Part shown: positions 14,160 to 29,125 of the stretch, piece after piece | Numbering within the stretch: position 1 is the stretch's first letter | Layout: the number at the start of each line of letters is the position of its first letter | Assembly: GCF_004010195.1 (NCBI RefSeq) | Contig: NC_057752.1 | Coordinates: 15,203,585 to 15,235,101 of the forward strand | Length of the DNA stretch: 31,517 nucleotides | From: Chiloscyllium plagiosum | Lineage: Eukaryota | Direction: 5' to 3' | Translations under genes and position numbers: made by a program | The notes under the pieces: generated by a model | Told to the model about the DNA's origin: nothing | The model's input: only the letters and a program-made list of their open reading frames with translations | Database searches by the model: none

Positions 14160-15212
14160 TGTTAGCTGAAGACTCAACACTGACATTTTCGACAAACCCA
14201 CTGACTTCCACAGCTACCTGGACTACACCTCCTCCCACCCAGCCTGCTGTAAAAATGCTATCCCTTATTCCCAACACCTCCATCTGTACCGCATCTGCTC
14301 CCAGGAGGACCAGTTCCACCACAGAACATGCCAGATGGTCTCCTTCTTTAAAGACTGCAATTTCCCCTGCCGCGTGGTTGATGATGCCCTCCAGTGCATC
14401 TCCTCCACTTCCTGCACCTCCCCCCTTGAACCCCACCGCTCCAACCATAAGGACAGAATCCCCTGGTCCTCACCTTCCACCCCAACAACCTCCGTATACA
14501 TCGCATCATCCTCTGCCATTTCCGCCACCTAAAAACGGACCCCACTGCCAGAGATATCTTTCCCTCCCCACCCCTATCCGCTTTCCGTAAAGACCGTTCC
14601 CTCCGTGACTACCTTGTCAGATCCACGCCCCCCAACAACACACCTGCCCCTCTTGGCATCTTCCCTTGCCACCACAGGAATTGCAAAACTTGTGACCACA
14701 CCTCCTCCCTCACCTCCATCCAAGGCCCCAAAGGAGCCTTCCACACCCAACAAAGTTTCACCTGTACATCCACCAATGTCATTTATTGTATCCATTGCTC
14801 CCAATGCAGTCTCCTTTATGTTGGGGAGACTGGACGATTTCTTGCAGAGTGCTTTAGGGAACATCTCTGCGACACCCGCATCAATCAGCCCCACTGCCCT
14901 GTGGCTGAACATTTCAACTCCCCCTCCCACTTGCCACTTCCTCCCTCACCACTCAATGCCTGGAGAAAGAATGCCTCATCTTCTGCCTTGGAGCACTTCA
15001 ACCCCAAGGCATCAATGTGGACTTCACCAGTTTCCTCATTTCCCCTTTCCCCAATCTCTCCACCCCCGAGGTTCCTAGCTTCATTCCTGATGAAGGGCTT
15101 TTGCCCAAAACATCGATTCTCCTGCTCCTCAGATGCTGCCTAACCTGCTGTGCTTTTCGAGCACCACACTCTTGACTCGAATCTCCAGCATTTGCAGTAC
15201 TTACTTTCGCTT
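14160..15212 (+). mobile_element. Penelope-like element 3' part: RT C-terminus, GIY-YIG endonuclease, pseudo-LTR
   Basis: Frameshifted KPTDFHSYLDYTSSHP..NAIPYSQ..RICS and NVIYCIHCSQCSLLYVGET..VAEHFNSPSH. Confidence 0.88.
15083..15118 (+). ncRNA. Degenerate minimal type I hammerhead ribozyme in the Penelope pseudo-LTR
   Basis: attc-CTGATGA-a-GGGC tttt GCCC-AAAACATC-gatt. Other copies in the window read GAAACGTC, so two CpG-type G>A changes hit the core. Confidence 0.65.
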
Positions 15213-15596: not shown

Positions 15597-15700
15597 GGAA
15601 AAACAAGACTCCAGGTGCTGGAGATCAGAATCAAAACATGCGGTATTGGAAAAGGATAGCCGGTCAGGCAGCATCCGAGGAGCAGGAGAGTCAACATGTC
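15597..15700 (-). mobile_element. Penelope pseudo-LTR fragment
   Basis: ggtcaggcagcatccgaggagcaggagagtcaac, homologous to 15110-15212. Confidence 0.75.
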
Positions 15701-16460
15701 TGGGCAGAGAAATGGCAGATGGAGGTTAATCTGGATAAATGTGACATGATGCATTGTGGAAGCATCAACATACAGAGGGGTTGAGGCTTACAGCTCCACA
15801 CTTCTCTGTCAGTGACAACACAAGTGGATAAGGTGGTCAGGAAGGCATACGACATGCTTGCCTTCATCAGTAGGCACAGATTATAAGAATTAGCAAGGAA
15901 TGTTGCAGCTGCATGGAACTTTAATCAGGCTACATTTGGAGTATTGTGTGCAGTTCTGGTCGCCACATTCCCAGAAGGATGTGGAGGCTTTGAAGAGGGT
16001 ACAGAAATGGTTTATCAAGATGTTGCCTGTTTGGACGGTATTATCTATGAGGAGAGATTGGTTGCTTTTCACTTGAATGCCAAAGGATGAGGGGCAACCT
16101 GGTAGAAGCATATAAAATTATGAAAGGCATGGGTAGAATGGGTAATCGGAATCTTTTTTCCTAGAGTAGAAATATCAATTAGTAGGGGATATAGGATTAA
16201 GGTAAAAGTGGGTCAGTTTAAAGAAGATGTGAGAGGCAAGTTTTTTACAGAGGTTGGTAAGTACCTGGAATGTGCTGCCAGAGGAGGCGGTAGAGGTGGA
16301 TACAACAGCAATGTTTTAAAGAGTTCTTGAGAGATACATGAGGTAGGAAACGGAGGACCACGTGGAGACAAAAGTTTTTTTGTTTGGAAAGACACAATGT
16401 GTTAGCGCAGTCCTGGTGGGCCAAAGGGCCCATTCCTGTACTAGACTGTTCTTTGTTCTT
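15700..16460 (+). mobile_element. Decayed CR1 3' region
   Basis: tgggcagagaaatggcagatggag (WAEKWQME), HLEYCVQFWSP, tail ctgttctttgttct. Confidence 0.85.
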
Positions 16461-16950: not shown

Positions 16951-17286
16951 CAGATGTCCAGCCATTCGAGACTCTTCAATGTACTCAAGGTTGGTCTGGA
17001 TTTCCTCTGCATGTGTTGGGTCCGTGCATTTCATTGGTTCAAATCCCTGTCCTCAACAGTGCAGTTACTAACATGTCCTAGAGCTCGGGAGATGCCAGAT
17101 CAATGACTAGCGATCTCACCACCTCCTCCTGAAGTGATTGGCACCATTCAAGTGGGGCCTGCTCAAAATGCCTATCCTTCTTTGATTGGGGCTGCCTTTC
17201 AATGTGACAAATTGCAGGCAAATGCCACCAGAGCAGACATCATGCACCATGTGCCATTCACTGCTAAATTCAGCAGAATCCCTCAC

Positions 17287-17399
17287 CTTGACCTGGCCCA
17301 TGGTTTGGGCTGTGCACTGGGTGTAGTTGGTCCATATTCGATTGCTCGAAGGGTGTCGATACCACTTCCCATTTTCAGTACAGATCTTGGTTGCCTTTT
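17287..17399 (-). CDS. calcrl: Calcitonin receptor-like GPCR, ECD exon: (E)[37 protein letters not shown]; 113 nt
   Basis: Resembles human CLR [38 protein letters not shown]. Acceptor ctctttttag at 17400, donor AAG|gtgagg at 17286. Confidence 0.96.
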
Positions 17400-18230
17400 C
17401 TAAAAAGAGAGTTGCAGACATGTCAAAGATGCCTTGCTATTCTTGAAGTAAATGGATCGAACAGAAAGGGCAATATGCAGGTCGACAATATTGCAGAGTT
17501 AGACCATAGGCTGTCTTTGTGATGTGTCTCAAGGTTTGGATTTGAGATTCAATCAGATGAATTGAGTTGAACGTAAGACGATATCCAGGTCAGGGCATGG
17601 ACTGGTGACAAGTGCGTACAGTGTGGGTGCAGCTGATATGGTGGCTTCAATCTTCCCTGAATGATTTTGTCACTAGGATATCAGATAATAACACAGAAGA
17701 TGCTGGAAATACTCAGCGGATCAATCGACATCTGTGGAGAGAGATAAACAGAGCTAACATTTGAGATTCCACAGAACCTGTCATCAGAACCGGGACAAGT
17801 TAGAAATCTGGTCAATTTTAAGTGAGGGAGAAGGAGAGGTAGGTTGGGGAAAAGAGACGTCTCTGATCGGATGGAGAGCAGGAGAGATTAAATAATGAAA
17901 GGCTTCATGATGCAAGGCCCAAGGGAATGTGAAGCGGCAAGAAGCTATGGATATGACTCGAGGAGGTGTGAATGGCAGAAAGTTGATTGGCTTTCGTCTG
18001 AAAGGAAATGAATAGAAAACAAGCGAGTGAACCCAAAACCCGCAAAAAATAAGGAAGCAGAATGGAGGTAGGCGTTACCATCTGAGTTTTGGTGAATTCA
18101 GTGTTGAACCCAGAAGGCTGTAAAGTGGCTCAGTGCGAAATGCTGTTCCTCAAACTTGACCTTCACTGGGACACTGCAGGAGGCAGAGGTCATTGAGATT
18201 CGAGTGGGACGAAAGAGAAGAAAATGACAG

Positions 18231-18421
18231 GCGAGAGAGTGGTGCTGGAAAAGCACAGATGGTCAGGCAGCATCCAAGAAGCAGGAGAATCGACGTTTCG
18301 GGCAAAAGCACTTCAATCCTGACCTGAAACGTTGATTCTCCAGTTCCTTGGATGCTGCCTGACCTGCTGCACCCCACTCTCGATTCTCATCTCCAGCATC
18401 TGCAGTCCTCACTTTCTCCTC
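18231..18421. mobile_element. Hairpin (fold-back) Penelope pseudo-LTR mini-element, 14-bp TSD
   Basis: Inverted arms ggtcaggcagcatcc..gagaatcgacgtttc / gaaacgttgattctcc..ggatgctgcctgacc; TSD gaagaaaatgacag at 18217-18230 and 18422-18435. Confidence 0.85.
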
Positions 18422-18759
18422 GAAGAAAATGACAGATGACTGGGAATTCAGAGGTCAGACTTGCAAATTGAATGGAGGTATTGCACAGAGCAGTCACCTC
18501 GTCTGTGTTTTATCTCCCCAGTGTTGAGGTGCACTGTGATCAGATCAGTAGATCAGATTGGAGGAAGTACAAGTGGATTGCTGTTTCACATCCCATAGAG
18601 TTTTTGAGGCCAAGGACAATGGAAAGATCAGATGATGCATCTCCTGCACTTGGCCAGGAAGCTGCTGTTGGGATGGAAGGAAGTTCAAAGTTTGTGAGAA
18701 AATTTGTAGCTCGGGTGCTCGTTGTTGTGGTTCTGTTCGCCGAGCTGGGAATTTGTGTT

Positions 18760-18799
18760 GCAGACGTTTCGTCCCCTGTCTAGGTGACGTCCTCAGTGT
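18760..18799 (-). ncRNA. Minimal type I hammerhead ribozyme, core intact
   Basis: aca-CTGAGGA-c-GTCaCCT agac AGGgGAC-GAAACGTC-tgc. Confidence 0.7.
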
Positions 18800-20518
18800 T
18801 TGGGCGCCTCCTGTGAAACGCTTCTGTGGTGTTTCCTCCGGCATTTGTAGTGGTTTGTACCTGCCGCTTCCGGTTGTCAGTTCCAGCTGTCCGTTGCAGT
18901 GGCTGGTATATTGGGTCCAGGTCGATGTGCTTATTGATTGAATCTGTGGATGAGTGCCATGCCTCTAGGAATTCTCTGGCTGTTCTCTGTTTGGCTTGTC
19001 CTATAATGGTAGTGTTGTCCCAGTCGAATTCATGTTGCTTGTCATCTGCATGTGTGGCTACTAAGGATAGCTGGTCGTGTCGTTTCGTGGCTATTTGGTG
19101 TTCATGGATGCGGACCGTTAGCTGTCTTCCTGTTTGTCCTATGTAGTGTTTTGTGCAGTTCTTGCATGGTATTTTGTAAACTACATTAGTTTTGCTCATG
19201 CTGGGTATCGGGTCCTTCGTTCTGGTGAGTTGTTGTCTGAGGATCCGCATCCATGAACACCAACTAGCCACGAAACGACACGACCAGCTATCCTTAGTAG
19301 CCACACACACAGATGACAAGCAACATGAATTCGACTGGGACAACACTACTATTATAGGACAAGCCAAACAGAGAACAGCCAGGGAATTCCTAGAGGCATG
19401 GCACTCATCCACAGATTCAATCAATAAACACATNNNNNNNNNNNNNNNNNNNNNNNNNNNNNNNNNNNNNNNNNNNNNNNNNNNNNNNNNNNNNNNNNNN
19501 NNNNNNNNNNNNNNNNNNNNNNNNNNNNNNNNNNNNNNNNNNNNNNNNNNNNNNNNNNNNNNNNNNNNNNNNNNNNNNNNNNNNNNNNNNNNNNNNNNNN
19601 NNNNNNNNNNNNNNNNNNNNNNNNNNNNNNNNNNNNNNNNNNNNNNNNNNNNNNNNNNNNNNNNNNNNNNNNNNNNNNNNNNNNNNNNNNNNNNNNNNNN
19701 NNNNNNNNNNNNNNNNNNNNNNNNNNNNNNNNNNNNNNNNNNNNNNNNNNNNNNNNNNNNNNNNNNNNNNNNNNNNNNNNNNNNNNAGGTGTTCTTCTTC
19801 CTCTTTTTGCAGTTCTGGTGTACTGCAGTATGTTGTGGCCCTTTTGAACACGCTGCAGTACACCAGAACTGCAAAAAGAGGAAGAACAACACCTATACAA
19901 TGTATTCGCCAAAAACGGATACCCGCGCAACTTCATCAACAAATGCCCAAGGGAAAGACAATGGAACGAGGACATGCCACAACCCAAAGGACTAGCCACA
20001 CTACCATACATCAAGAGCATCTCCGAACTGGCAGCCAGACTACTGCGACCACTAGGACTCATAACAGCACACAAACCAACAGCCACTCTCAGACAACAAC
20101 TCACCAGAACGAAGGACCCGATACCCAGCATGAGCAAAACTAATGTAGTGTACAAAATCCCATGCAAGGACTGCACAATACACTACATAGGACAAACAGG
20201 AAGACAGCTAACGATGAACACCAACTAGCCACGAAACGACACGACCAGCTATCCTTAGCAGCCACACACGCAGATGACAAGAACATGAATTTGACTGGGA
20301 CAACACTACTATTATAGGACAAGCCAAACAGAGAACAGCCAGAGAATTCCTAGAGGCATGGCACTCATCCACAGATTCAATCAATAAGCACATCGATCTG
20401 GACCCAATATGCCGGCCACTGCAACGGACAGCTGGAACTGACAACCGGAAGCGACAGATTCAAACCACTACAAATGCCGGAGGAAACAACACAGAAGCGC
20501 TTCACAGGAGGCTCCCAA

Positions 20519-20558
20519 GCACTGAGGATGTCACCTAGACAGGGGACGAAACGTCTGC
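20519..20558 (+). ncRNA. Minimal type I hammerhead ribozyme, core intact
   Basis: gca-CTGAGGA-t-GTCaCCT agac AGGgGAC-GAAACGTC-tgc; stem I gca/tgc; palindromic ACGT stem III. Confidence 0.75.
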
Positions 20559-21041
20559 AACACAAATTCCCAGTTCGGCGAACAGAACCACAACATGGAA
20601 GGAAGTGTCCGGGATGATGATGAATGGAGCAAGGGGTCACGAAGGGAACAGGCCCTTTAGGATTCTGAAAAAGGAAGGGCAGGTGAGGATATGGGAGGCG
20701 GAGGGACCACCTTGGAGAAGGCAGAAATGGCAGAGAATCATCTGTTGCATTTCGAGGTTGCTGGGTTAAAAGTGTGGATGAGAGAAGGAAAGGGAAAGGT
20801 GAGACCAGGAATGTAACCTATTTCTCAGACAGAGTAGAGGGGGCCCCTGTCAATCACAGTGGTTGAGAATTCTCTGCTGAGGGGAAAGGATGATATATCA
20901 GAAGCACTTGCGTGGAAGGTGGCATCATTAGAATGGAGGCAATGCAAACAGAGGAACAAGAAGAATAGAATGGATTCCTTACAGGAAGCAGAGTGTGGGG
21001 AAATATCATTGAAATTGCCATGAGCTTGTAGTGCTCATTCA

Positions 21042-21209: not shown

Positions 21210-23070
21210 GATAAAATAACTCATAAGCGACTGTTAGCTTAAGTTCATGGAACCAAAGGCAAATTATTGACCGGATAGGAAACTGGCTGAGCAGAAGGAG
21301 ACCGAGAGTAGTGACAATGGACAAATCCTCCGACTGGCAGGACATGACTCATGGTGATCCATAGCAAACTGCATTGGGGCCTCAGCTGTTCGCTGAATTG
21401 ATGAGATAGGCATATCCAAATGTGTCAAGAACATAAAACATGGGCAGCATTGTAAACAGCGTAGTTGGAAAAGCAAAACTGGCAAATGGATTTGAATGTT
21501 GGAAAATGTGCACTCATCCATTTTAGACCTACAAAGGATCAAACAGGATTCTCCCTAAATGGGGAAAAGCTAGAAACGCGGAGGAACATAGAACATAGAA
21601 CATGGAACATAGAAGAATACAGCGCAGTACAGGCCCTTCGGCCCTCGATGTTGCGCCGATCCAAGCCCACCTAACCTACACTAGCCCACTAAAAGACTTG
21701 GGGATCCAGATACTTAGATCATTTAAATGTCATGACCAAGTACAAAAAAAACATTGAAAAGGTGAATGGAATACTGGTCTTTATACCTAGTGGGTTAGAA
21801 TACAAGCTTTAGTTACACTTAGCCCTGGCTAGATCATGAAACAAAGATAAAGAAAGAATTGCAGATTCTGGAAATCAGAAGCAAACGCAGAAATTCCTGG
21901 AGAAACTCAGCAGCTCTGGTAGCATCTGTGCAGAGAAATCAGAGTTAACGTTTTGGGTCCAGTAACCTGTCTTCAGAATTGAGTCTGCCAGACCTTCTGA
22001 GTTTTTCCAGCAATTTCTGTTTTTGTTCCTGGTTTGATGCCACCTGCAAAACTGTGAGCAGTTCTGGGCTCCAAACCTTAGCAAAGAGAAACTGGCTTTG
22101 GAGGGAGTGTACTACAGATTCACCAGAGTGATAACTGGACTCCAACTGGGTGAAGAGATGGGGAGAGATTAAGCAAATTTTAGCTGTCATCCCTGGAATT
22201 TAGAAGGTCAAGGGATGATTTGATCAAAGATTTCAAGATATGAAGAAGAGATAGGGGAGATGGAAACACTTTCCATTTATTGTGGGTGGGGGCAGGTGTT
22301 CAGGACTGAAGGTCATAATCAAAAATTAGAGACAGACCAGTCAGGAGTGAAATTGCATTCAATCCTGGTCTCCGTGCTATAGGAAAGACGTTACTAAACT
22401 TGGAATAGTTCAGAAAAGGATGTTGCCAGGGTTGGAGGGTTTGAGTCACAGGGAGAGGCTGAATAGGCTGAGGCTGTTTCCCCTGGAATGTTGGAGATTG
22501 AGGAGTGACTTTATAGAGGTTTATAAAATCGTGAATAGCCAAGGTCTTTTTTCTCAGGGTAGGGGAGTCCAAAACTAGAGGACAGAGGTTTAAGGTGAGA
22601 GGAGAAAGATTAAAAAGGGACCTAAGGGGTAACCTTTTCATGCAGAGGGTGGTGTGTGTATGGAATGAGCTGCCAGAGGAAGTGGTGGAGGCTGGTACAA
22701 TTACACATTTAAAAGATGGGTATATGAATAGGAAGGGTTTAGAGGGATATAGGCCAAATGCTGGCAGATGGGACTAGATTAGTTTGGGATATTTGGTCAG
22801 CATGGACAAGTGGGACTGAAGGGTCTGTTTCTGTGCTGTACAATTCTATGATTCTATACAGGACAGGAGGAGATTGTGATTCTCATGCTCTCATGGCGAT
22901 TGTGTGAAATCAATGATTAAACTTCAAAGTGACAATGATGGGTACTTGTTACAGCTGTTAAGTTAAAAGTGGACAATGGCAGACCTATAGAGTTAGGTCA
23001 CTGATCAGCCCTGATCTCACTGAATGGTGGGATAATTCAGGGAGCTAATGGTCTCCTTCTGGTCCTACAT
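21210..23070 (+). mobile_element. Old CR1 with nested inserts: minus CR1 tail (21585-21690), Penelope hairpin mini-element (21839-22030), younger plus CR1 3' end (22353-22858)
   Basis: WQMDLNVGKC motif; 21585-21690 is the reverse complement of the tail at 13170-13264; LFMQRVVCVWNELPEEVVEAG. Confidence 0.8.
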
Positions 23071-23227
23071 TCCAATGATCACTTCAGAATCCTTTAGGTG
23101 TTAGGGGATCGCTATTGTCTAACCAGCATGCACGGCAAAGCTGAAATCAGAAAGTTGATACGTGTATTTAATTTTTGATTATGCCCCTCAGTCCTGGACA
23201 CCTGCACCCACCCACAAGTGAAAAGTA

Positions 23228-23540
23228 GATCAGATTCCCTACAGTGTGGAAACAGGCTCATCGGCCCAACCAGTCTACACTGACCCCCCGAAGAGTAACC
23301 CACCCAGACCCACTACCCTCTGACTAATGCACCTATCGCTATGGGGCAATGTAGCATGGCCAATTCACCTGACCTGCACATCTTTGGATTGTGGGACGAA
23401 ACCAGAGCGCCCGGAGGAAACCCATGCAGACATGGGGAGAATGTGCAAACTCCACACAGACAGTCGCCCGAGGCTGGAATCGAAACTGGGACCCTGGTGC
23501 TGTGAGGCAGCAGTGCTAACCACTGAGCCACCGTGCCACC
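23228..23540 (-). mobile_element. HE1-type V-SINE
   Basis: ggcacggtggctcagtggttagcactgctgcctcacagc head and V-domain. Confidence 0.92.
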
Positions 23541-23545
23541 CCACC

Positions 23546-23790
23546 AAGTGTTTCCATCTCCCCTATCTCTTCTTCATATCTTGAAATCTTTGATCAAATC
23601 ATCCCTTGGCCTATTAATTACAGGGATGACAGCTAAAATTTGTTTAATCTCTCCCCATCTCTTAACCCTTGGAGTCCAATTATCACTCTGGTGAATCTGT
23701 AGTGCACTTCCTCCAAAGCCAGTGTCTCTTTGCTAAGGTTTGGAGCCCAGAACTGCTCACAGTTTTACAGATGGCATCTCACTAGGAACA
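23546..23790 (-). repeat. Inverted duplicate of 22024-22271
   Basis: Reverse complement matches closely, e.g. gatttgatcaaagatttcaagatatgaagaagagataggggagatggaaacactt is identical. Confidence 0.9.
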
Positions 23791-23933
23791 GAGTTTGTGT
23801 TTCTTTTCATTAGGAGCCTATTTGAGTATTTCCTCTTTGTGGTCATAGATCACAAAATAATGCGCTGAAGATGAAGATACGTTTGGGAGGTGGATGGGGA
23901 TGGAATTAGATAAATAGCAGTTAACAGACTTGC

Positions 23934-24044
23934 CTGCAGGATCAAAGACTTGATAGTAATCAGGGCAATGCTGTGCAGACATCGATTTGGCAGAAGCATC
24001 GTCCCAGCACAGCCATCCATCCCAGGTACGGTTACAGTAAGAAC
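23934..24044 (-). CDS. calcrl: Calcitonin receptor-like GPCR, extracellular-domain exon: (G)[36 protein letters not shown](E); 111 nt, phase 1-1
   Basis: Manual translation gives the class B ECD motif [11 protein letters not shown] and CPDY. Acceptor ttttactactttgcag at 24045, donor CAG|gcaagt (GC type) at 23933. Joins in frame to the 17399 exon (G+AA=E). Paralogue identity (calcrl vs calcrl2) is uncertain. Confidence 0.95.
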
Positions 24045-26957: not shown

Positions 26958-29125
26958 TGTAGTGATTGCAAAAGAGGTCAGAGTCGGAGTTCCTTGATTG
27001 GGGCTGTTAACTTGGTCTAATCAGGGAGTCCTGGCTGACAGATATAAATAGGAGAGTTAGGGGTTCTGCTCACTCTGAGAGCCGGCTCTGTGCTAGCTGG
27101 GTTAGTGTCAGGTACTACGCAACTGGACTCAAAGAGGCACCGCAGCTGGCTTTGTTGTTAGAAAACGCAGCAAGTGGAGCTTCTGACTTACAAGGTACGT
27201 CAATGGAAGTAGACACTCTCGTCAGGCTGACTGAGGTTGGGAAACACCACTCGACTGACTGAGGGCATATCCTGAACAGAGGGACTTGAGGTCAGCCCAC
27301 AGCAAAACTCCAAAACAAAGCCGAACCTTGGCCAAATGGTTCAAATGTTCGTCAACAGGCCATTGTAGTCGCTGGTCCTTATTGTATGCAGACTCAGATC
27401 AGTGATCGCGAAACCAGTCTTTCTCAAAATTTGCTCTCGACTCCAACCCTTCAGTTTGCATGAGACCTCGGCCAGGCTGTGAACCTATCCTGGGGGTCCC
27501 CCACAGATTAAGGATACAACTTCAGTTCCAGTTCCTTATGAGAAGGAGCTGGCTCAGTTACCACTGGTTATAGTAAAAGGCTCAGGCCCAAGTGAGGTCC
27601 TAAGTAAATACCTAGAAGTTTTTCAGGAAGAGAGTCTGGTGCTGGGAAAAGCACAGTGGGTCAGGCAGCATCCGAGGAGCAGGAGAATCAACGTTTCAAG
27701 CCCTTCATCAGGCCCGATGTCCGAAACGTCGATTCTCCTGCTCCTCGGATGCTGCCTGACCCACTGTGCTTTTCCAGCACCACACTCTCGACTCTGATCT
27801 CCAGCATCTGCAGTCCTCACTTTCTACTAGTTTTTCAGGAAGGTCTAGGGACTATCCAAGGGGCCAAGGCCAGCCTGTATGTTGACTAGGAAGCAATTCC
27901 ATGATCCTGCAAGGCATACCTGGTGCCATTTGCCCTTAAGCACAAAAGTAGAGGCAGAAATGAGAAGGGCTGGAAAGCAAAGGAATCGTCAAACCAGCGG
28001 AGTTGGTGGAATGGGTAGCCTAATAGGTTGGTTCACCTTTGGGTGGATTAGAAACAAACATTAAACTGCTTTTCACAGCTGGACAAATACCTAATCCCAT
28101 GGATTACAGGATTTACATGCAGAACTGGCGGTGGGGTGGGGCTGTCCTTCACAAAACTGGATATGAGCCATGCATACCTGAAATTGCGATTCGTTGAGGA
28201 TTGCCAGAAGTGTGCTCCAGTTAATACCCCTAAGGGTTTGCAGCAATATGTGAGACTGTCATTTGGGGTAGCATCAGCCTGTGCCATTTTCAAGCAGACA
28301 AGGTCACCCGCAGGTTGCCATTTATCTGGATGATGTGCCAACAATTTGGAAGACCAATAAAGAGCACTTGGAGAACTTGGACGTGGTGCTTAAATGTTTA
28401 TCCTCGGCATGTGAAGGTCTTAGAGGGAAATATGTGTGTTCCAGTCACCCCAAGTAACCTACTTGGCCTATAGAGTTTACAAGACCAGCTTGCATCCATT
28501 GGAAAATAAAGTGAGGGTGATCAAAGGTGCCCTGGTTCCTACATCTGTACTGGAGCTTGGGTCTTTCCTTCAGTTGGTGAATTATTACGGAAAATTTCTA
28601 TGTAAGATGCCTCCATCTTAGCACCCTTATCTTTCATGTTCACAAAGGGTCAGCCTTCGAAATGGTCTGGTAGCCGATAAGTACCCTTTTGGTAAGTGAA
28701 AAAGCAGCTATTGTCATCTAAGGTGTTGGCCCACTGCGATCCCAAGTGAGATGTGATGCCAACATGCCTCCCTGTATGGTATTGGGGTAGTGTTGGCTCA
28801 CCCGTGGCCCAGCAGAGAGGAATGCCCGATAGCATATGCTTCCTGGACTTTGGCTGATGCCAAACAAAGGTCTGCCCAAAGAGAGATGGAAGGTTCGGTG
28901 GTCATCTTTGATGTGAGAAAGTTCTACCGATATCTTTACGGATGTAAATTGTAACAGTAATGGACCATGAACCCGTGCTCTGACTACTTAAAGAGGTCAG
29001 GGTTGTGCTGCACATGGCTTCAGGTCAGATTCAGCAGTAGGCTCTCATTTTAAGTGCATACAATGACAAGTTGGAACAATGTCCGGAAGACCAAGTGGCC
29101 AGAAGGTCCATACTCTCAGCTGTAA
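26958..29125 (+). mobile_element. Decayed Ty3/Gypsy LTR retrotransposon: partial 5' LTR (26958-~27120), gag/pro remnants, RT and RNase H; no 3' LTR
   Basis: Starts with TG; tataaa at 27043; FTKLDMSHAYL, YVRLSFGVASA, YLDD at 28323-28334, SFLQLVNYYGKF, PIAYAS; many frameshifts. Confidence 0.88.
27631..27828. mobile_element. Hairpin Penelope pseudo-LTR mini-element inside Gypsy pol, perfect 14-bp TSD
   Basis: TSD agtttttcaggaag at 27617-27630 and 27829-27842; ~65-bp inverted arms. Confidence 0.88.

What the first reader, a model, noticed from the sequence alone, without database searches (positions are those of the whole stretch)
18685..20594. Two core-intact hammerhead ribozymes on opposite strands in a fold-back Penelope insertion; one is sense in the receptor pre-mRNA
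Seen: CTGAGGA-n-stem II-GAAACGTC at 20519-20558 (+) and 18760-18799 (-), inside one insertion with a 12-bp TSD. Established: Penelope pseudo-LTRs carry minimal type I hammerheads whose palindromic stem III (here ACGU, no loop) lets them cleave as dimers. Inference: the minus copy is transcribed with the GPCR intron ~1.4 kb upstream of an exon acceptor and could cut the nascent intron. The fold-back also supplies its own antisense arm, which could mask it.
Basis: partly seen in the sequence, partly recalled or inferred. Interest (0 to 1): 0.7.

Follow-up and report, generated by a model that had tools for sequence, protein, structure and literature searches.

The report
Decayed Penelope hammerheads in shark intron
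The two small self-cutting RNA motifs are real, but they are the ordinary tail-end cargo of an old Penelope-type jumping-gene insertion in a shark receptor intron, and the copy that is transcribed with the gene is damaged, has no visible partner and is covered by its own mirror image, so it probably does not cut.

Summary
Observation confirmed: two core-intact minimal hammerheads (+20522-20555, -18796-18763) inside one insertion with a 12-bp TSD, in a 6.5-kb intron of a minus-strand calcitonin/CGRP-receptor-family gene; the minus cut site is 1363 nt before the acceptor. The insertion is a textbook Penelope/Poseidon unit: 5'-truncated inverted and tandem arms, a 39-nt tail at one end only, and the family start codon on the hammerhead as in Anolis PAc. 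The inference that it cuts the intron is weak. The sense copy has lost one of three stem I pairs (family letter differs in 138 of 141 RNA reads). The two visible motifs lie on opposite strands, so they cannot dimerise in one transcript. The earlier-made antisense arm pairs 38 of 40 hammerhead bases in the folding model. Published minimal hammerheads are inactive alone, slow as dimers or protein-dependent, while polymerase reaches the exon within about a minute. Family-wide RNA reads show no ends at the cut site (poorly suited library). The left junction also appears in a related species, so the insertion is probably old. This scan has reported the same kind of motif many times in this and other shark genomes.

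The parts
18673..18684 (+). left copy of 12-bp target-site duplication
18685..19241 (-). arm A: 5'-truncated Penelope/Poseidon 3' end (GIY-YIG endonuclease C-terminus in an open frame to a TAG inside hammerhead loop II, hammerhead, tail); sense to the receptor pre-mRNA
18685..18723 (-). 39-nt tail present only at this end
   Evidence: 30-40-bp tail described in PMC8557442 and PMC11167929
18760..18799 (-). minimal type I hammerhead, core intact, stem II 6 of 7 pairs, stem I reduced to 2 bp (A at 18799 where the family has G); family ATG reads ACG (18789); cut site 18763/18762
19242..19433 (+). arm B: third, distinct endonuclease piece running into the gap (about 3% from A and from D)
19434..19786 (.). 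assembly gap of 353 N; if B is colinear with D it hides a third hammerhead on the + strand near 19562-19595 (inference)
19787..19846 (-). arm C: inverted piece of the RT C-terminus, folding back on the start of D across a 12-nt loop
19847..20594 (+). arm D: RT C-terminus, linker without Zn finger, endonuclease with two frameshifting indels, hammerhead, no tail; antisense to the receptor pre-mRNA
20519..20558 (+). minimal type I hammerhead, core intact, stem I 3 bp, ATG at 20528-20530, cut site 20555/20556
20595..20606 (+). right copy of the TSD
17287..17399 (-). downstream exon of the calcitonin/CGRP-receptor-family gene (hormone-binding domain); acceptor AG 17401-17400
23934..24044 (-). upstream exon; GC donor at 23933; intron 6534 nt

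Best explanation
An old, dead insertion of a Penelope/Poseidon-clade retrotransposon made in one event (one TSD). Reverse transcription started at the two tail sites and switched template or snapped back, leaving 5'-truncated arms in the order A(-), B(+), gap, C(-), D(+). Each complete 3' end brings its pLTR hammerhead along as a passenger. In the receptor pre-mRNA the antisense of D is made first and zips onto arm A as it emerges, giving a roughly 500-bp, 96% duplex that buries the hammerhead. The hammerhead also lacks a same-strand partner and has drifted. The intron is spliced out whole; any RNA-level effect is that of an intronic double-stranded stem, not of cleavage. Shown: anatomy, family letters, orientation, distances. 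Inferred: masking in vivo, absence of cleavage, age.
For: Anatomy matches the published PLE unit: inverted 5'-truncated copy next to a partial tandem, 30-40-bp tail at one end (PMC8557442). Here the ends fall at +67 and +106 from the ATG, 39 nt apart, and the ATG sits at the start of stem II as in Anolis PAc (PMC11167929). Endonuclease 80-92% identical to the five best carpet-shark PLE-derived proteins among 15 hits; no cysteine motif in the RT-EN linker. Arms A and D differ at 21 of 507 sites. A contig of a related species runs from the flank 23 nt into the element, with flanks 40 letters different in 881. Stem I: 138 of 141 family RNA reads and 75-88% of contig depth in three DNA runs carry the pairing letter that this copy lacks; relatives P0001 and P0002 read Ser where this copy reads Asn. 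Folding 18640-20650 puts 38 of 40 hammerhead bases in the inter-arm duplex at p>0.9; local duplex -261 kcal/mol against -3.7 for the hammerhead secondary structure; monomer stem I pairing probability <=0.002. A minimal hammerhead monomer showed no cleavage and dimers were slow (PMC4209133); PAc needs its protein and no RNA-seq ends were found at its cut site (PMC11167929). Slow intronic ribozymes do not affect splicing (Fong 2009 as cited in PMC10919898); 1363 nt takes about 20-55 s at 4.1-1.5 kb/min (the low rate is my assumption for a shark).
Against: Both catalytic cores are fully intact after about 2% drift per arm, though for 12-13 positions per copy that is expected by chance most of the time. 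In a crossed dimer the 18799 change weakens A as enzyme but leaves A's own cut site able to form a 3-bp helix I with a family-type partner, so the mutation alone does not protect the intron. The gap is unread and its size is an estimate. The family is very abundant and its RNA reads are about 8-9:1 in one orientation over the hammerhead (element-sense if the library follows the usual convention), so partners in trans and element protein may exist. The related-species contig has only 23 letters inside the element, below the tool's 31-letter bridging rule. No read came from this locus, so nothing was observed in vivo.
Confidence: 0.88

Rival explanations
1. One reading: the sense hammerhead cuts the nascent intron, as a dimer with a copy hidden in the gap, fast enough to abort some transcripts and lower receptor mRNA, as the CPEB3 intronic ribozyme does.
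For: Core intact, sense orientation, 1363 nt before the acceptor. Arm C is on the same strand and runs into the gap. A's substrate side is intact for a family-type partner. Precedent for intronic ribozyme control in PMC10919898.
Against: A full arm C needs about 700 nt and the gap is set at 353. If C were full it would itself be paired with the antisense of D across a 12-nt loop. CPEB3 has a 2-3 min half-life and 9931 nt of run-way; here the window is under a minute and the class is slow.
Confidence: 0.03
2. Conditional cleavage in trans: where the Poseidon family is expressed, its RNA supplies the enzyme strand and/or its RT-EN protein chaperones folding, so a small fraction of pre-mRNAs is nicked at 18763/18762.
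For: PAc hammerhead cleavage is protein-assisted (PMC11167929). Family RNA is present and strand-biased. Heterodimer geometry gives A's site a 3-bp helix I.
Against: Only 7 intermolecular base pairs compete with a 500-bp intramolecular duplex. No pile-up of read starts or ends anywhere on the stretch, including the cut site, at family depth 139-175 (table 6; poly(A) single-cell library, weak test).
Confidence: 0.05
3. Part of the four-arm structure is an assembly artefact around the gap, and the true allele is a simple two-arm fold-back.
For: Gap in the middle; PLE inverted structures are known to trouble assemblies (PMC8557442).
Against: B differs from both A (6 of 189) and D (5 of 180) and has letters of its own, so it is not a duplicate of either. 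The left junction is reproduced without difference by a 310-nt contig of the same species. Either way the two hammerheads and the masking remain.
Confidence: 0.04

Closest known systems
Minimal hammerheads (min-HHR) in pLTRs of metazoan Penelope-like elements (Cervera and de la Pena 2014, PMC4209133; Lunse et al. 2017, known to me only through the review PMC6765202)
   Same: Type I, long stem II, unpaired base after A9, G10.1-C11.1 pair, palindromic 15.2-16.2 with no loop III, short stem I; pairs on opposite strands close together are already described there.
   Different: Shark host: a term search of 2 of the supplement files found no shark, Callorhinchus, Leucoraja, Chiloscyllium or skate (one file not searched). 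The sense copy has a degraded stem I.
Poseidon from Anolis carolinensis (PAc), Frangieh et al. 2024, PMC11167929
   Same: ORF start codon at the start of stem II; cut 26 nt after the start codon there, 28 nt here; two end points a tail length apart; no RNA-seq ends at the cut site.
   Different: PAc is full length and active in vitro; this is a 5'-truncated, frameshifted relic. Here the stop codon of the endonuclease frame lies in loop II; the sections I read do not say whether PAc shares that.
EN+ PLE insertion architecture (Craig et al. 2021, PMC8557442)
   Same: Partial tandem, adjacent inverted 5'-truncated copy, one-sided 30-40-bp tail, variable TSD.
   Different: Two successive inversions (A/B and C/D) under one TSD; a complex but expected variant.
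Domesticated intronic ribozymes: amniote RECK/CTCL/DTNB hammerheads (PMC6155905) and CPEB3 HDV-like ribozyme (PMC10919898)
   Same: Ribozyme motif sense in an intron upstream of an exon.
   Different: Those are conserved single-copy motifs free of their element; CPEB3 cleaves with a 2-3 min half-life. This one sits inside a high-copy repeat, lacks helix III, is masked and carries a minority stem I change.

Membership tests
EN+ Penelope-like element, Penelope/Poseidon clade | [quoted passage not shown] | tested here: met
   Translation VVYKIPCKNCTKHYIGQT; Pfam GIY-YIG E 0.013, below the curated cut-off; 15 homologues, several with RT domains
EN+ Penelope-like element, Penelope/Poseidon clade | No extra Zn-finger motif in the RT-EN linker (present in Neptune and Nematis, PMC8557442) | tested here: met
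   Arm D frame has cysteines only at 3, 33, 106, 109; none in the linker
EN+ Penelope-like element, Penelope/Poseidon clade | RT phylogeny places it in the clade | not tested
   Only the RT C-terminus is present; no tree built
EN+ Penelope-like element, Penelope/Poseidon clade | pLTR with hammerhead, inverted/tandem truncated arms, one-sided 30-40-bp tail, TSD | tested here: met
Minimal type I hammerhead of PLEs | Core CUGANGA and GAAA..UH intact, G10.1-C11.1, palindromic 15.2-16.2 | tested here: met
   both copies; no majority difference at core positions among the rows shown (210 rows not shown)
Minimal type I hammerhead of PLEs | Helix II | tested here: met
   6 of 7 pairs in both copies; covariation across families not measured on DNA
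Minimal type I hammerhead of PLEs | Helix I | tested here: inconclusive
   3 bp in the plus copy and the family majority; 2 bp plus A.C in the minus copy; a 2-bp helix I exists in D. virilis Penelope
Minimal type I hammerhead of PLEs | Same-strand second copy for dimer formation | tested here: inconclusive
   None visible; 353-N gap unread
Minimal type I hammerhead of PLEs | Self-cleavage | not testable with these tools
   no assay; no end pile-up in one poly(A) run
Rfam hammerhead families | Covariance-model match | tested here: not met
   no hammerhead family among 11 matches at E<=1; my inference is that the models expect helix III
Domesticated intronic ribozyme (RECK- or CPEB3-type) | Sequence of this copy kept by selection, able to fold and cleave as a monomer in pre-mRNA | tested here: not met
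   minority stem I change and lost ATG, monomer stem I probability <=0.002, masked; cross-species conservation of the motif itself could not be read

The most novel reading that the evidence does not exclude
In shark cells that express Poseidon, family RNA or the RT-EN protein activates sense-oriented intronic hammerhead relics in trans, so thousands of host introns are nicked conditionally, and fold-back insertions like this one persist because their antisense arm silences the ribozyme. This predicts that intact, unmasked, sense-oriented copies are depleted from introns genome-wide while masked ones are not.
Probability: 0.05. Interest if true: 0.7.

Novelty: new member of a known kind. Interest (0 to 1): 0.13.

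Why it matters
As it stands it matters little: one more decayed copy of a class described in 2014, in a genome where such motifs are among the commonest repeats. It is a clean example of Poseidon insertion anatomy (two end points 39 nt apart, snap-back at the 5' truncation) that fits the internal-initiation model from Anolis. It would matter only if PLE hammerheads in host introns cut under some condition; then transposon expression would be tied to host pre-mRNA survival, and shark genomes would be a good place to test the still open question of what PLE hammerheads do.

Tried and rejected
Rfam scan: no hammerhead hit; the miRNA-family hits at 19792-19889 are below gathering scores and come from the C/D fold-back. 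Whole genome not held, so no copy count and no orientation statistics. Viral contigs: 2 pattern matches, 0 confirmed. Metagenome contigs: 3 of 117 candidates confirmed, 37-40% identical, no usable hammerhead downstream, so no DNA alignment or covariation count could be made. Run search: no RNA holder listed. RNA run X21 (about 2% read): depth 0 on the exon 17287-17399 and on unique intron, so expression, splicing and editing of this locus could not be seen; no excess of A>G/T>C sites over DNA runs, but the reads are family-wide. Contig of run X5 stops at 18674 inside the TSD, so it says nothing on presence or absence. The right junction and the gap were not examined with reads. Nearest-neighbour energies of dimers are unfavourable even for the intact copy (D:D +9.0, A:D +11.6, A:A +14.2 kcal/mol); the model lacks core tertiary contacts, so only the ranking is used. 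Lunse et al. 2017 was not held. Paper searches: 'shark'+'Penelope'+'ribozyme' gave 2 irrelevant papers; 'Penelope'+'bamboo shark'+'genome'+'transposable' gave 2, seen as listings only. A 2026 preprint reports retrozymes in one chondrichthyan (supplements closed), so sharks are not wholly unstudied. Sequence look-up in earlier findings gave nothing.

Full report
Observation. A scan of both strands finds two motifs with a perfect hammerhead core: plus 20522-20555 and minus 18796-18763. The core pattern has 2 matches against 0.02 expected, and 0 of 100 shuffles reach 2; the two are copies of one repeat. Both have stem II of 6 in 7 pairs with an A.G mismatch and the palindrome ACGU where helix III would be. 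The 12-mer ATGGAAGGAAGT flanks the insertion at 18673-18684 and 20595-20606 and occurs nowhere else in the window.

Host gene. Minus-strand exons match Pfam HRM and 7tm_2. The exon 17287-17399 is closest to CGRP type 1 receptor and then calcitonin receptor; the exon near 2274-2426 matches both about equally. The intron runs 6534 nt from a GC donor at 23933 to an AG at 17401-17400; the minus cut site is 1363 nt before the acceptor. The best protein relatives of the endonuclease come from carpet sharks at 80-92% identity for the top 5 of 15 hits.

Anatomy. Self-comparison gives four arms: A on minus (18685-19241), B on plus (19242-19433, into a 353-N gap), C on minus (out of the gap to about 19846) and D on plus (19847-20594). 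A and D differ at 21 of 507 sites, A and B at 6 of 189, B and D at 5 of 180, so B is a real third copy. A ends 39 nt beyond D. In D an ATG is formed by A9, the unpaired base and the first G of stem II; D ends at +67 and A at +106 from it. The endonuclease frame stops at a TAG in loop II. PMC8557442 (passages and Introduction read) describes partial tandems, an adjacent inverted 5'-truncated copy and a one-sided 30-40-bp tail as typical. [quoted passage not shown] The linker has no Zn finger, which fits Penelope/Poseidon; no tree was built.

Family and age. I laid four public runs on 17200-19236 at 88% likeness. Over the element the summed contig depth is about five orders of magnitude above the flanks; this is not a copy number but shows a very abundant repeat. 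At 18799, 138 of 141 RNA reads and 88, 75 and 81% of contig depth in three DNA runs carry the letter that completes the third stem I pair; this copy does not. Proteins P0001 and P0002 read Ser-Thr there where this copy reads Asn-Thr. At 18789, 149 of 149 reads carry the letter that makes the ATG. No core or stem II position appears among the listed differences, but 210 rows were not shown, so minority variants are unseen. A 325-nt contig of a related species aligns over 18401-18707, that is 23 letters into the element, and its flank differs at 40 letters in 881. This suggests that the insertion predates the split, but 23 letters is below the tool's 31-letter rule.

Can the sense copy cut? PMC4209133 (parts 1-2 of 4 read) found no cleavage by a monomer, low activity for dimers and trimers, and notes opposite-strand pairs 100-700 bp apart as common. 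[quoted passage not shown] 2017 was not held. The Anolis hammerhead cleaves only with the element's protein, and no RNA-seq read began or ended at its site. The two visible motifs here are on opposite strands and cannot share a transcript. In local folding the minus copy's stem I has probability at most 0.002 and its hammerhead secondary structure is -3.7 kcal/mol, against -261 for the duplex with the antisense of D. Folding the whole minus strand 18640-20650 places 38 of 40 hammerhead bases in that duplex at p>0.9 (gap bases unpaired, equilibrium model). The antisense of D is transcribed first. A full arm C, which could be a partner, needs about 700 nt where the gap is set at 353; B needs 201-240, so the simplest fill puts a third hammerhead on the plus strand (inference). 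Polymerase covers 1363 nt in 20-23 s at the mammalian rates quoted in PMC10919898 and in 55 s at an assumed 1.5 kb/min; that paper, citing Fong 2009 which I did not read, says slow intronic ribozymes do not affect splicing. In the RNA run no place shows a pile of molecule starts or ends, at family depth 139-175 around the site. That library is poly(A) single-cell, only about 2% was read and no read came from this locus, so the test is weak.

Against my reading. In a crossed dimer the 18799 change weakens A as enzyme, but A's own site still forms 3 bp with a family-type partner. Family RNA exists and is about 8-9:1 in one orientation over the hammerhead. The gap is unread. These keep open a conditional cut in trans or with protein help, which I put at about 5%.

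Context and novelty. The same window holds decayed hammerhead-bearing ends of at least two other PLE families, including a fold-back stub 300 nt downstream in the same intron. A 2026 preprint (10.64898/2026.07.22.740005, passages) finds over 40% of Xenopus retrozymes in introns and retrozymes in one chondrichthyan. Shark PLE hammerheads were not found in the supplement files searched for the 2014 paper (one file not searched) nor in two paper searches. Earlier notes of this scan describe the same kind many times in this and other shark genomes; they are unchecked AI notes and are not counted as support.

Verdict. Real motifs, known class, ordinary insertion anatomy, most likely silent in the host intron. 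New member of a known kind, interest 0.13.

Noticed in passing
window 23933 (minus) to 17400: The host intron appears to be a GC-AG intron (donor GCAAGT), inferred from the reading frame of the two exons.
   Followed up: partly
window 14451-15175 (+): 3' end of a second PLE with a Cys motif in the RT-EN linker (Neptune-like) and a decayed hammerhead at 15087-15114; its end stubs recur at 18236-18420 and 27631-27828 (both fold-backs), 481-529 and 15649-15707. Read depth over 18220-18423 exceeds that of the Poseidon family.
   Followed up: partly
window 17676-17810 and 21870-22035: Stubs of a third hammerhead-bearing repeat family with degenerate cores, on the minus strand of the same intron.
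   Followed up: partly
window 20522-20555 and 18763-18796: [quoted passage not shown]
   Followed up: partly
proteins P0004, P0005, P0010, P0013, P0014: Predicted shark isoforms of MAP3K7, NT5DC1, CUEDC2, EYA3-like and WBP2-like contain this endonuclease piece at 67-92% identity: exonisation or gene-model artefacts.
   Followed up: no
window 18696-18831 (family-wide RNA reads): Depth rises from about 45-60 over the endonuclease to 139-175 over hammerhead and tail, with about 8-9:1 strand bias, which may reflect transcription from the pLTR of other copies.
   Followed up: no
window 19787-19894: Arms C and D are truncated within about 12 nt of each other and form a 48-bp hairpin, as expected from snap-back priming at the 5' truncation point; it gives spurious miRNA-family matches in Rfam.
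   Followed up: partly
window 22024-22334 and 23163-23790: Another long interrupted inverted repeat (arms of 122, 72, 53 and 55 nt, 89-96%) in the same intron.
   Followed up: no
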